Assembly (NCBI RefSeq): GCF_050920415.1
Contig: NZ_CP169309.1
Length of the DNA: 64,000 bases
Strand: one strand, 5' to 3'
Origin: Escherichia coli
GTDB lineage: Bacteria > Pseudomonadota > Gammaproteobacteria > Enterobacterales > Enterobacteriaceae
Positions 39,390 through 41,768 of the stretch are shown here, one piece after another. The position numbers and the translations under genes were made by a program. Within the stretch, counting starts at the first letter, position 1, and every line of letters starts with the position of its first letter. Under the pieces are notes generated by a model. That model was not told where the DNA came from, searched no databases, and saw only the letters and a program-made list of their open reading frames with translations.

Positions 39390-40976
39390 TTAATGCTCGC
39401 GAGTCTGGTGGAACTGAACGTCCGGATAACGTTCCTGTGCCAGGCGCAGGTTGACCATGCTGGTAGCGATGTAAGCGAGGTTATCGCCGCCATCAAGCGC
39501 CAGTTGGCTTTCGTTCTTACGCTTGAACTCTTCGAATTTCTTCGCGTCCGCACATTCTACCCAGCGTGCAGTGGCAACGTTGACTGACTCATACACTGCT
39601 TCAACGTTGTATTCGCTCTTCAGGCGCGCTACCACCACATCAAACTGCAGCACACCAACCGCACCAACGATCAGGTCGTTGTTGGAGATCGGACGGAACA
39701 CCTGCACCGCGCCCTCTTCGGAAAGCTGTACCAGCCCTTTGAGCAGCTGTTTTTGCTTCAGCGGATCTTTCAGGCGGATACGACGGAACAGTTCCGGCGC
39801 AAAGTTCGGGATACCGGTGAACTTCATCATCTCACCCTGGGTAAAGGTGTCGCCGATCTGAATAGTGCCGTGGTTGTGCAGACCAAGGATGTCGCCCGGA
39901 TACGCTTCTTCAACATGCGAACGGTCGCCCGCCATAAAGGTCAGCGCGTCGGAGATCACCACATCTTTCGCGGTGCGCACCTGGCGCAGCTTCATACCTT
40001 TTTCATATTTACCAGATACCACACGCATAAACGCCACGCGGTCGCGGTGTTTCGGGTCCATGTTGGCCTGAATTTTAAATACGAAGCCGGTAAATTTATC
40101 TTCGCTCGCCTCTACGATACGGGTATCAGTCTGACGCGGCATCGGCGCAGGTGCCCACTCTACCAGGCCATCCAGCATATGATCGACGCCGAAGTTACCC
40201 AGCGCAGTACCAAAGAACACTGGAGTAATTTCGCCCGCAAGGAACAATTCTTTGTCGAACTCGTTAGACGCGCCTTTCACCAGTTCCAGTTCGTCACGCA
40301 GCTGCTGTGCCAGATCTTCACCAACCGCAGCATCGAGATCCGGGTTATTCAGCCCTTTAACAATACGGACTTCCTGAATGGTGTGACCTTTACCGCTCTG
40401 ATAGAGATAGGTTTCGTCTTTATAAAGGTGGTAAACGCCTTTAAACAGCTTGCCGCAGCCAATCGGCCAGGTGATCGGCGCACAGCCGATTTTCAGCTCG
40501 TTCTCAACTTCATCGAGCAGCTCCATCGGATCGCGGATATCACGGTCAAGTTTGTTCATAAAGGTGAGGATCGGCGTATCGCGCAGACGGGTAACTTCCA
40601 TCAGCTTACGGGTACGATCTTCAACACCTTTTGCGGCGTCGATAACCATCAGGCAGCAGTCCACCGCCGTCAGGGTACGATAGGTATCTTCCGAGAAGTC
40701 TTCGTGCCCGGGGGTGTCGAGCAGGTTAACCAGGCAGTCGTGATACGGAAACTGCATCACAGACGTGGTAATGGAGATCCCACGCTGCTTTTCCATCTCC
40801 ATCCAGTCCGACTTAGCGTGCTGGTTGGAACCACGGCCTTTTACTGTACCGGCAGTCTGAATGGCCTGTCCGAACAGCAGCACCTTCTCGGTGATGGTCG
40901 TTTTACCGGCGTCCGGGTGAGAAATAATTGCAAAGGTTCTTCTTTTCGCTACCTCTGCGGCCAAAAGGCTTGTCAT
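39390..40976 (-). CDS. prfC: peptide chain release factor 3, with a non-K-12 N-terminus
   Basis: 528 aa from the ATG at 40976 ([27 protein letters not shown]...); from residue 9 onward it matches K-12 RF3 as I recall it (K-12 begins MTLSPYLQEVAKRR). Confidence 0.93.
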
Positions 40977-41162
40977 AATTGTTGTCTCTTTGATTATGTA
41001 CAATCATATGTACAAAGAAAAATTCATGCCGCTGATTGTACATTTTGGAGGTATCAGAGCATAGCAGAACATGATCAGTAGGTGTATTTGTAGCCAAAGA
41101 ACATTTGTACATGCAGCAATCTTTACTCTATTGACACTGTTTATTCATACAGTAAAAAATAG

Positions 41163-41182
41163 TGCTGTATACAAATACAGTA
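41163..41182 (+). promoter_or_regulatory. LexA (SOS) box upstream of the dinI-like gene
   Basis: tgCTGTatacaaatACAGta matches the CTGT-N8-ACAG LexA consensus, 14 bp upstream of the dinI-like ATG. Confidence 0.75.
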
Positions 41183-41195
41183 TAGAGGGATTTTT

Positions 41196-41444
41196 ATGCG
41201 TATTGAGATCTGCATAGCCAAAGAGAAAATGACTAAAATGCCAAGCGGTGCTGTTGATGCGTTAAAGGAAGAATTAACTCGGCGCATCAGTAAGCGTTAT
41301 GACGATGTAGAAGTAATCGTAAAAGCCACCAGCAATGACGGGCTTTCTGTTACACGCACCGCAGATAAGGATTCTGCAAAAACATTTGTTCAGGAGACTC
41401 TGAAAGATACTTGGGAGTCTGCTGACGAGTGGTTTGTTCACTAA
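41196..41444 (+). CDS. DinI-family protein (prophage-encoded)
   Basis: 82-aa [14 protein letters not shown]...[15 protein letters not shown] resembling E. coli DinI in size and C-terminal motif; GAGGGA ribosome-binding site. Confidence 0.85.
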
Positions 41445-41694
41445 TAGACACGTAAAATCGGTAACGGCTGGAAATAATTCAATACTCGCACTATCGGAAG
41501 TTCACCAGCCAGCCGCAGCACGTTCTTGCATACGACGTGCCTGCGGTTTCAACTCCCGCCAGCTCCACCACTTTTGATAGGACTGCAACCGGACAGCGGC
41601 AATAAAAACAGCCACTTACGGACACTGACCAGACAGTAAGCGGACTTAAAAAAGACAAAAATATACACGCAAAATGCACGTGCATTTCAAAAAA

Positions 41695-41728
41695 GCCTCT
41701 GATTGTGAAGTCAGAGGCTTTTCTATTT
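41695..41728 (+). terminator. intrinsic terminator on the plus strand
   Basis: gcctctga-ttgtgaag-tcagaggc hairpin followed by ttttctattt. Confidence 0.6.
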
Positions 41729-41768
41729 GTAACTAAGAGTAACAATTCAACATAACGCAACCTACCAA

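What the first reader, a model, noticed from the sequence alone, without database searches (positions are those of the whole stretch)
40996..41112. Four copies of the 8-mer ATGTACAA (two in each orientation) clustered just upstream of prfC at the prophage end
ATGTACAA occurs at 40996-41003 and 41008-41015, and its reverse complement TTGTACAT at 41036-41043 and 41105-41112, all within 117 bp between the prfC start and the dinI-like promoter. Four occurrences of an 8-mer built around the palindromic core TGTACA within such a short stretch is unlikely by chance. Candidates are integrase arm-type binding sites of the attR arm, or operator sites of a phage or host regulator now controlling prfC.
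Basis: seen in the sequence. Interest (0 to 1): 0.45.

Follow-up and report, generated by a model that had tools for sequence, protein, structure and literature searches.

The report
Prophage integrase arm sites beside prfC
The four ATGTACAA repeats are most likely docking ("arm-type") sites for the integrase of a lambda-like prophage that inserts into the start of the release-factor gene prfC and replaces its first 16 codons; this is an ordinary kind of feature, but the motif proves to be shared with the SXT/R391 antibiotic-resistance elements and with elements in more than 120 bacterial species.

Summary
ATGTACAA occurs four times in the 64-kb window, all within 40996-41112, and no local shuffle out of 20,000 reproduces this.

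The repeats are not host DNA. The crossover core is GGGTGAGAAATAAT (40915-40928), inside prfC. Everything to its right is phage attP DNA, including prfC codons 1-16.

The other prophage end, next to the integrase start codon, carries four more TGTACA sites. Phage 2H10 has all eight in one intact attP.

The integrase has an N-terminal arm-DNA-binding domain of the P4 type. Its relatives down to 39% identity keep TGTACA repeats at matching positions, including the SXT/R391 element R997. Relatives with other targets keep the motif. A sister clade that targets lepA uses TGGACA instead.

A species-wide scan found at least 120 loci with a TGTACA pair, always 12 bp apart and 73-77 bp from the prfC core.

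Best reading: integrase arm-type sites (about 0.8), unproven without binding assays. R1-R2 is the universal pair; R3 and R4 are lineage-specific extras. Whether the sites also affect prfC expression is open. This is a new member of a known kind, of moderate interest.

The parts
39390..40976 (-). Hybrid prfC (release factor 3), 528 codons. The host-derived body is joined at the core to 16 phage-encoded N-terminal codons ([16 protein letters not shown]; K-12 has the 17 codons [17 protein letters not shown]).
   Evidence: ORF list, RefSeq annotation of the identical locus, and the attR/attB/attL alignment.
40915..40928 (.). Common core (crossover region) GGGTGAGAAATAAT. On the prfC strand it reads ATTATTTCTCACCC, codons I-I-S-H-P (17-21).
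   Evidence: It is the only block shared by attR (window), attB (K-12), attL and the intact attP of phage 2H10. The same codons form the core in R997.
40929..41120 (.). Phage-derived P arm of attP, now the attR arm. It holds the replacement prfC 5' end, the ribosome-binding region and the four repeats.
   Evidence: It is collinear with the intact attP of phage 2H10 and unrelated to the K-12 sequence upstream of prfC. It is nearly invariant in 7 E. coli and phage sequences, and variation begins at about 41121.
40996..41003 (+). R1, ATGTACAA: the core-proximal member of the tandem pair (12-bp period).
   Evidence: It belongs to the pair found at a fixed distance from the core in at least 120 species.
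41008..41015 (+). R2, ATGTACAA: the distal member of the tandem pair.
41036..41043 (-). R3, ATGTACAA on the minus strand (TTGTACAT on +): an accessory site.
   Evidence: It is kept at the same distance (114 bp from the core) in the Pantoea stewartii relative L107 and absent in most other loci.
41105..41112 (-). R4, ATGTACAA on the minus strand: the most distal accessory site.
   Evidence: It was seen only in the E. coli group (L115). One E. coli strain carries TTGTATAT here.
40993..41021 (-). Best sigma-70-like promoter candidate for the hybrid prfC: TTTTCT (41021-41016), 17-bp spacer, CATAAT (40998-40993). R2 lies in the spacer and the -10 overlaps R1.
   Evidence: Position-weight scan score 8.77. 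This is above the 90th percentile (8.17) and below the 99th (9.70) for random windows. The stricter consensus scan finds nothing on this strand, and the position is not conserved in the family. It is a candidate only.
41131..41180 (+). Promoter-like site of the dinI-like gene (TTGACA-18-AAAAAT) overlapped by two LexA-box-like CTG-N10-CAG elements (41137-41152 and 41165-41180). It marks the right-hand limit of the att arm.
   Evidence: The LexA-box reading comes from the sequence and the known SOS-box consensus.
41196..41444 (+). DinI-like gene, 82 aa; the first phage gene beyond the att arm.
   Evidence: Pfam PF06183, E = 1.5e-19; RefSeq annotation.

Best explanation
The four 8-mers are arm-type binding sites for the prophage's own tyrosine integrase. 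This 418-aa P4-family enzyme is encoded about 48 kb away at the other prophage end, outside the window.

Shown: the phage attP reads int ATG - four TGTACA sites (9-67 bp from the ATG) - core GGGTGAGAAATAAT (about 231 bp) - a 16-codon imitation of the prfC 5' end - four ATGTACAA sites (68-197 bp beyond the core) - the dinI-like gene. Integration at the I-I-S-H-P codons of prfC splits this. The window therefore holds attR: host prfC body + core + phage-supplied N-terminus + the four sites.

Inferred mechanism: the N-terminal arm-binding domain of Int docks on these sites while its C-terminal domains hold the core. This bridges the arms and core into the recombination complex for integration (attP x attB) and, with the small HTH_17-type excisionase, for excision (attL x attR).

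The tandem pair R1-R2 (12-bp period, 73-77 bp from the core in all relatives) is the essential element. R3 and R4 are lineage-specific extras.

The pair lies 19-38 nt upstream of the phage-supplied prfC start codon. Any promoter for the hybrid prfC must therefore overlap or lie just beyond it, so Int occupancy might also affect prfC expression. That step is speculative.
For: (1) attR/attB/attL/attP alignments place all four sites in phage DNA and define the core.
(2) The same motif occurs four times on the other arm, beside the int start. 8 of the 10 TGTACA hexamers in the 49.5-kb prophage locus lie in the two arms, and TGTACA-derived k-mers top the list of those repeated at least twice on both arms.
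(3) Int carries Arm-DNA-bind_3 (PF13356, E = 2e-16), a central domain and a catalytic domain. Its residues 1-80 match PDB chains 3JTZ and 3JU0.
(4) Phylogenetic footprint: Int relatives of 84, 83, 65, 60, 52 and 51% identity, all at prfC, keep 3-4 TGTACA sites at similar offsets from the int ATG while the DNA between them diverges. Poisson P is 1e-6 to 1e-14 per locus.
(5) The motif follows Int and not the target. A Morganella phage (50%) and an A. baumannii element (45%) have no prfC core but keep ATGTACAC repeats.
(6) Co-variation: lepA-targeting phages (Int 44-45%) have the same layout with ATGGACAC, and their arm domains differ at several conserved positions.
(7) SXT/R391 element R997 (Int 39%) has GTGTACAAA pairs on both sides of the same prfC core.
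(8) A species-wide scan found at least 120 loci, against fewer than 1 expected by chance. The pair had exactly a 12-bp period and sat 73-77 bp from the core, with 70 different replacement N-termini.
(9) The annotated P4 attP has the same geometry: 12-bp tandem arm repeats by the int start and beyond the core.
Against: No binding or mutational data exist, so everything is comparative. All these elements also encode a small HTH_17-type excisionase candidate, so Int is not the only shared DNA-binding protein. The hexamer core is palindromic, which is more typical of dimeric regulators than of monomeric arm domains. The distance from the pair to the prfC start codon is as constant as its distance to the core, so spacing alone cannot separate a recombination role from an expression role. 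Within E. coli the whole arm is conserved, not just the 8-mers, and R4 is mutated in one strain. Some loci from the wide scan have ordinary-looking genes upstream, so not every hit is demonstrably an active element.
Confidence: 0.8

Rival explanations
1. The repeats are binding sites for the recombination directionality factor (the small HTH_17-type excisionase) rather than for Int. They would bend the arm to favour excision.
For: Every element examined has a small HTH_17-like ORF convergent with int, including SXT/R391 Xis. A second DNA-binding protein therefore co-occurs with the motif. Tandem direct repeats next to a core are also how lambda Xis sites are arranged (established knowledge).
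Against: The sites occur on both arms and directly against the int start codon, like the annotated P4 Int arm repeats. Excisionase sites are usually confined to one arm. The excisionase candidates are very divergent (20-29% identity between the E. coli phage protein and the Morganella, Edwardsiella and SXT ones), yet the motif is almost unchanged. The arm domain is far better conserved (45-88%). The domain architecture of Int requires arm sites, and TGTACA-derived k-mers top the list of those repeated on both arms.
Confidence: 0.07
2. The repeats are primarily promoter or operator elements that drive or regulate the element-supplied prfC 5' end. They would be bound by RNA polymerase or by a phage or host regulator.
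For: The pair always lies 17-21 nt upstream of the replacement start codon. In E. coli the best promoter candidate has R2 in its spacer and R1 overlapping its -10. SXT is reported to supply a new promoter for prfC (PMC8409611, citing Hochhut & Waldor 1999).
Against: The same motif clusters at the int end of attP, far from prfC. It also occurs in relatives that do not target prfC at all. The elements have unrelated regulatory circuits (lambdoid phage versus SXT SetR/SetCD). No promoter position is conserved relative to the pair across 107 unique sequences. The native K-12 prfC upstream region has no TGTACA.
Confidence: 0.06
3. The cluster is a chance product of AT-rich composition, or a remnant of a local duplication with no function.
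For: The region is 33% GC, and R1-R2 could have arisen by a 12-bp duplication.
Against: 0 of 20,000 local shuffles reach 4 copies. The motif recurs at the other arm and in at least 120 species at a fixed position.
Confidence: 0.01

Closest known systems
SXT/R391 integrative conjugative elements (IntSXT, attP/attB in the 5' end of prfC)
   Same: Same target gene and the same crossover codons (I-I-S-H-P). Both carry a substitute prfC 5' end in attP. Both have the same TGTACA(A) repeat as 12-bp-period pairs, at the same distance upstream of the core and again on the int/xis side. Both integrases have the same domain architecture. [quoted passage not shown]
   Different: This element is a lambdoid prophage with head, tail, lysis and CI-like genes, not a conjugative element. 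Its Int is only 39% identical to the R997 integrase, whereas SXT/R391 membership is defined by a near-identical Int (PMC2791158). Here int starts right at the att arm and is transcribed away from it. In R997, xis lies between attP and a convergent int.
Satellite phage P4 attP and Int (founder of the P4 integrase family)
   Same: Same integrase family: the N-terminal arm-binding domain is annotated in the P4 record, and P4 Int is about 25% identical. Same attP geometry: arm repeats at the int start codon, the core about 115-165 bp away, and a directly adjacent 12-bp tandem pair 54-77 bp beyond the core.
   Different: The P4 repeat sequence (ATGCCCCCAAT-type) is unrelated. From established knowledge, P4 targets the 3' end of a tRNA-Leu gene and does not have to supply a promoter or an N-terminus.
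Phage lambda Int arm-type sites (P1, P2, P'1-3)
   Same: Same principle: a heterobivalent integrase whose N-terminal domain binds repeated arm sites on both sides of the core to build the intasome (summarised in PMC2951348).
   Different: The arm-domain family, the consensus and the gene order differ. Lambda int is transcribed towards att, and lambda integrates between genes.
KplE1/HK620-type recombination modules (IntS, TorI)
   Same: The integrase gene points away from attL, so arm-type sites overlap its promoter or leader, and the integrase is negatively autoregulated (shown experimentally, PMC2951348). Here four sites lie between the best int promoter candidate and the int ATG.
   Different: The integrase lineage, motif and target (argW tRNA) differ. 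Autoregulation has not been tested here.
dusA-specific integrative elements
   Same: [quoted passage not shown]
   Different: The integrase, target and accessory factors are unrelated.

Membership tests
Arm-type integrase-binding sites of a tyrosine-integrase attP | Several copies of one short motif on both sides of the core, within a few hundred bp | tested here: met
   Four sites lie 164-222 bp to the int side of the core and four lie 68-197 bp beyond the core's other end, in the intact attP of phage 2H10 and in attL plus attR of the prophage.
Arm-type integrase-binding sites of a tyrosine-integrase attP | The cognate integrase has a separate N-terminal arm-DNA-binding domain | tested here: met
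   PF13356 Arm-DNA-bind_3, E = 2.2e-16, residues 3-90. Residues 1-80 match PDB 3JTZ/3JU0.
Arm-type integrase-binding sites of a tyrosine-integrase attP | The motif is distinct from the core-type sites | tested here: met
   The core region has no TGTACA. It shows its own inverted repeat, AATTATT-N9-AATAATT, around GGGGTGAGA (sequence printed). The reading as core-type sites is inferred.
Arm-type integrase-binding sites of a tyrosine-integrase attP | The motif tracks the integrase lineage and not the target, and co-varies with the arm domain | tested here: met
   TGTACA is kept in 39-84% Int relatives, including ones with non-prfC targets. It is replaced by TGGACA in the lepA-targeting clade, whose arm domain differs.
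Arm-type integrase-binding sites of a tyrosine-integrase attP | Direct binding by the integrase N-domain, and loss of recombination when the sites are mutated | not testable with these tools
   This needs gel-shift or footprinting and in vivo integration/excision assays.
SXT/R391 family of ICEs | [quoted passage not shown] | tested here: met
   The core lies at the same I-I-S-H-P codons, and 16 element-encoded codons replace the native 17.
SXT/R391 family of ICEs | Integrase nearly identical (about 99%) to IntSXT (PMC2791158) | tested here: not met
   39% identity to the R997 integrase by tblastn.
SXT/R391 family of ICEs | Conserved conjugative backbone (tra, setR/setCD) | tested here: not met
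   The element is a lambdoid prophage with terminase, portal, capsid, tail, lysis, Q and CI-like genes.
Sigma-70 promoter for the hybrid prfC overlapping the repeats | -35/-10 elements at proper spacing upstream of the start codon, conserved among relatives | tested here: inconclusive
   There is one moderate candidate in E. coli (score 8.77, between the 90th and 99th percentile of random windows). The strict scan finds none, and no position is conserved in 107 relatives.

The most novel reading that the evidence does not exclude
The universal TGTACA pair may do double duty. Besides docking Int, it could act as an operator within the element-supplied prfC promoter or leader, only 17-21 nt from the start codon. 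The amount of release factor 3 would then depend on integrase occupancy, wiring a host translation-termination factor to the recombination state of phages, islands and SXT-type elements across Proteobacteria. A related point is that this integrase lineage appears to have spread by retargeting the homologous G1-motif codons of paralogous translational GTPase genes (prfC IISHPD, lepA IIAHID), with a one-base change in its arm motif.
Probability: 0.15. Interest if true: 0.6.

Novelty: new member of a known kind. Interest (0 to 1): 0.38.

Why it matters
Arm-type sites are textbook features, so the category holds no surprise. Four practical points follow from the analysis.

- **prfC is rebuilt, not broken.** About 690 of 5,426 complete E. 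coli genomes carry this junction, including Stx1a/Stx2c-converting phages. At least one survey has counted this kind of insertion as gene disruption.
- **A motif for SXT/R391-type integrases.** The work gives a candidate arm-site consensus (K-TGTACA-W-A, 12-bp tandem pair, 73-77 bp from the core). It applies to the integrase lineage that includes the SXT/R391 resistance elements, whose attP architecture seems not to have been dissected in the literature I could reach.
- **A search signature.** The signature finds prfC-inserted elements in at least 120 species from sequence alone.
- **A specificity-swap experiment.** The TGTACA versus TGGACA difference between the prfC-targeting and lepA-targeting clades is a ready-made test of arm-domain specificity.

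Tried and rejected
- **Viral contig search with the integrase.** It returned only relatives at least 95% identical, which are useless for footprinting. I replaced it with a protein search plus context look-ups.
- **Full-text search for the motif strings.** It returned only primer noise. Burrus & Waldor 2003 (PMC181012) is not held and Hochhut & Waldor 1999 is not available. I therefore cannot rule out that the SXT repeats were noted there.
- **Within-E. coli variation.** The whole arm is conserved, so this cannot single out the 8-mers. It only marks the module boundary near 41120 and shows R4 is dispensable in one strain.
- **Strict IHF consensus WATCARNNNNTTR.** No match in attP.
- **A conserved -10 element.** I considered one formed by the proximal site plus its 3' flank. 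The family-wide scan puts the top promoter candidates elsewhere and at scattered positions, so I rejected it as a general rule.
- **A difference in site orientation between SXT and the phage.** I first thought the orientations differed. The 120-locus consensus shows the pair has the same orientation everywhere.
- **A native prfC feature in Acinetobacter.** I considered that the pair might be native there. Upstream DNA is variable while prfC is conserved, and attP-type copies exist apart from prfC, which favours island junctions. This is not fully settled.

Full report
**1. The observation**

The window has ATGTACAA at 40996 and 41008 on the + strand and at 41036 and 41105 on the - strand. These are the only four copies in 64 kb. 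Four of the seven TGTACA hexamers in the window lie here.

The stretch is AT-rich (33% GC), but composition does not explain the cluster:

- None of 20,000 dinucleotide-preserving shuffles of 40978-41195 reached four copies.
- Only 1 of 3,000 shuffles had any 8-mer four times.
- No other 218-bp stretch of the window has an 8-mer four times.

**2. Where the repeats sit**

The window is E. coli. prfC runs 39390-40976 on the minus strand. A dinI-like gene starts at 41196, and a lambdoid prophage follows and runs off the window.

The encoded PrfC starts [13 protein letters not shown], not the K-12 MTLSPYLQEVAKRR. I aligned four sequences:

- the window junction;
- the empty K-12 site;
- the far junction of a 99.9%-identical prophage (NZ_CP169399.1);
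- the intact attP of phage 2H10 (LR595862.1).

Only GGGTGAGAAATAAT (40915-40928) is common to all four. On the prfC strand this is ATTATTTCTCACCC, codons I-I-S-H-P.

Everything to the right of 40928 is phage DNA: 16 substitute prfC codons, the ribosome-binding region and all four 8-mers. The displaced native prfC start and its promoter remain at the other end, beside yjjG. There RefSeq annotates a 69-bp pseudogene.

The hybrid gene has 528 codons, against 529 for the native gene.

About 647-691 of 5,426 complete E. coli genomes carry this junction. The integrase also occurs in Stx1a- and Stx2c-converting phages (PMC10132054). One survey listed prfC among genes "disrupted" by prophages (PMC3603311). 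In fact the gene is rebuilt.

**3.

Immediately upstream of the integrase start codon the attL arm reads TTGTACAA, TTGTACAT, ATGTACAA and ATGTACAG, within 70 bp.

In the 49.5-kb prophage locus, 8 of the 10 TGTACA hexamers lie in the two att arms. TGTACA-derived words top the list of k-mers repeated at least twice on both arms.

The attP order is therefore: int ATG, four sites, core, prfC imitation, four sites, dinI-like gene.

**4. The integrase**

The integrase is 418 aa. It has Arm-DNA-bind_3 (PF13356), a central domain and the catalytic domain. Its first 80 residues match the integrase N-terminal domain chains 3JTZ and 3JU0. From memory, these are the arm-binding domains of the HPI and HAI7 island integrases.

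It is about 25% identical to P4 Int. The annotated P4 attP has the same geometry. Arm repeats sit at the int start codon, the core lies beyond them, and a directly adjacent 12-bp tandem pair sits 54-77 bp past the core. The repeat sequence itself is different.

**5. Relatives**

Int relatives were found by protein search and their contexts fetched.

| Relative | Int identity | Position |
|---|---|---|
| Salmonella | 84% | prfC site |
| Pantoea | 83% | prfC site |
| Xenorhabdus | 65% | prfC site |
| Serratia | 60% | prfC site |
| Vibrio | 52% | prfC site |
| Shewanella | 51% | prfC site |

At each of these, a native prfC 5' remnant follows a core-like GGGTGNGANATNAT about 200-234 bp from the int ATG. 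Each has three or four TGTACA sites within about 80 bp of the int ATG, while the DNA between the sites has diverged. Against the rest of each locus the enrichment gives Poisson P between 1e-6 and 1e-14.

Two relatives have no prfC core yet keep ATGTACAC-type repeats, so the motif travels with the integrase and not with the target:

- a Morganella phage (50%);
- an A. baumannii element (45%, inserted after an alaS-like gene).

Three circular phage genomes from Edwardsiella and Enterobacter (Int 44-45%) have the same layout, but the repeat is ATGGACAC. Their core lies in an imitation of the lepA 5' end (MKNIRNFSIIAHID). Their arm domains differ from the TGTACA clade at several otherwise conserved positions. 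This is the co-variation expected of a protein and its site.

**6. SXT/R391**

The family member R997 is available as a circular record. Its Int is 39% identical. Its attP has:

- the core ATTATTTCCCACCC;
- a substitute start (MANQDFLNEINKRR);
- GTGTACAAA-N3-GTGTACAAA 16-38 nt upstream of that start;
- two more such pairs on the xis/int side.

The phage module and the SXT module are therefore homologous, and they share the motif.

**7. Species-wide test of the arm in the finding**

I scanned one genome per species for TGTACA-N5-7-TGTACA-N55-85-ATHATHTCNCAYCC. I estimate fewer than one hit by chance, a rough figure assuming uniform base composition.

The hits span Gamma-, Beta- and Alphaproteobacteria. 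Every locus has a period of exactly 12 bp, and the proximal hexamer starts 73-77 bp from the core. Yet there are 74 distinct 30-mers and 70 distinct substitute N-termini. The oriented consensus on the prfC strand is K-TGTACA-W-A.

For the four sites in the finding:

- **R1-R2** is the universal pair. Phage relatives in Pantoea, Xenorhabdus and Serratia carry it.
- **R3** is shared with Pantoea.
- **R4** is confined to the E. coli group and is mutated in one E. coli strain.

Some hits are complete attP arrangements, or carry the substitute N-terminus apart from prfC (L134, L172, L158). This shows that the pair is element-borne.

Genes upstream of the pair include phage tail, McrBC, HipA, ImpB-type and acyltransferase genes, but also ordinary-looking ones. 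In Acinetobacter the upstream DNA is highly variable while prfC is conserved. That fits island junctions.

**8. Mechanism**

Shown:

- the anatomy of attP, attL and attR;
- the domain content of Int;
- the conservation, fixed spacing and co-variation of the motif.

Inferred:

- Int's N-domain binds these sites and bridges the arms to the core in the intasome.
- R1-R2 is the essential pair.
- The four sites by the int ATG lie between the best int promoter candidate (score 9.73) and the start codon. They probably impose negative autoregulation, as shown for KplE1 IntS (PMC2951348).

Speculative: the pair also affects prfC expression. In E. coli the best promoter candidate (TTTTCT-17-CATAAT, score 8.77) has R2 in its spacer and R1 over its -10. 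The strict scan finds nothing on this strand, and no promoter position is conserved across 107 relatives.

**9. Rivals**

- **Excisionase sites.** These are not excluded, because a small HTH_17-type protein accompanies int in every element. However, those proteins are very divergent while the motif is nearly constant. The sites also lie on both arms, like the P4 Int repeats.
- **A pure promoter or operator role.** This is contradicted by the int-side cluster and by relatives that do not target prfC.
- **Chance.** This is excluded.

**10. Verdict**

It is an ordinary kind of element: arm-type sites of a P4-family integrase. It is a new member of a known kind, and it connects a common E. coli prophage to the SXT/R391 integration module. 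Binding experiments are still needed.

Noticed in passing
window 40929-40976 (and 39390-40976): prfC is a hybrid gene. Its first 16 codons ([16 protein letters not shown]), its ribosome-binding region and its promoter are phage DNA. The native 17 codons and the strong native promoter candidate (TTGCCT-16-TAAAAT, score 10.4) are left at the other prophage end as a 69-bp pseudogene. One survey counts prfC as 'disrupted' by prophages.
   Followed up: yes
L098, L099, L100 (circular phage genomes of Edwardsiella and Enterobacter), about 200-250 bp upstream of int: A sister clade of the integrase (44-45% identity) carries in its attP an imitation of the lepA 5' end (MKNIRNFSIIAHID) and uses ATGGACAC repeats. 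The lineage seems to target the homologous G1-motif codons of two paralogous translational GTPase genes (prfC IISHPD, lepA IIAHID).
   Followed up: partly
L003 1690-1830 (attL arm between the int-side sites and the core); also L086, L089: A second set of repeats lies here. There are three copies of RTTACATRA in E. coli, and TGAAAGRRKTT-like words recur two or three times in E. coli, Salmonella and Pantoea. They are candidate excisionase or bending-protein sites. No strict IHF consensus was found in attP.
   Followed up: partly
window 41137-41152 and 41165-41180: Two LexA-box-like CTG-N10-CAG elements overlap the promoter-like site of the dinI-like gene, so this gene is probably SOS-controlled. 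The stretch from about 41121 to 41195 is the variable part of the region among E. coli lysogens, whereas the att arm to its left is nearly invariant. This points to a mosaic boundary at about 41120.
   Followed up: partly
L109-L210 (21 Acinetobacter-type loci), L121: Many Acinetobacter species carry the TGTACA pair and a substitute-looking PrfC N-terminus (MFKDELAREVKARR and variants), with very different genes upstream. In A. kyonggiensis (L121) the pair and N-terminus are followed by unrelated AT-rich DNA and a stop, with no integrase nearby. Whether these are active islands or fixed remnants that now serve as the resident prfC 5' end is unresolved.
   Followed up: partly
L157 and L158 (Motilimonas cestriensis, same contig, about 10 kb apart): The same contig has two hits. 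One is joined to the prfC body and one is followed by the SXT-type attP continuation (IISHPDAAQPFNA*). This suggests a tandem or composite arrangement of prfC-targeting elements.
   Followed up: no
window 41445-41768: A stretch of about 320 bp lies between the dinI-like gene and the tail-fibre assembly (DUF4376) gene. It has no annotated gene in the identical RefSeq locus and only short unannotated ORFs in the mechanical list. It was not examined.
   Followed up: no
L004 4010-4729 / L002 46886-47605 (just downstream of int, outside the window): A 239-aa protein is encoded directly after int on the same strand. It has no Pfam match, and its role is unknown. The likely excisionase is the 64-aa HTH_17-like ORF further on, convergent with int.
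   Followed up: partly
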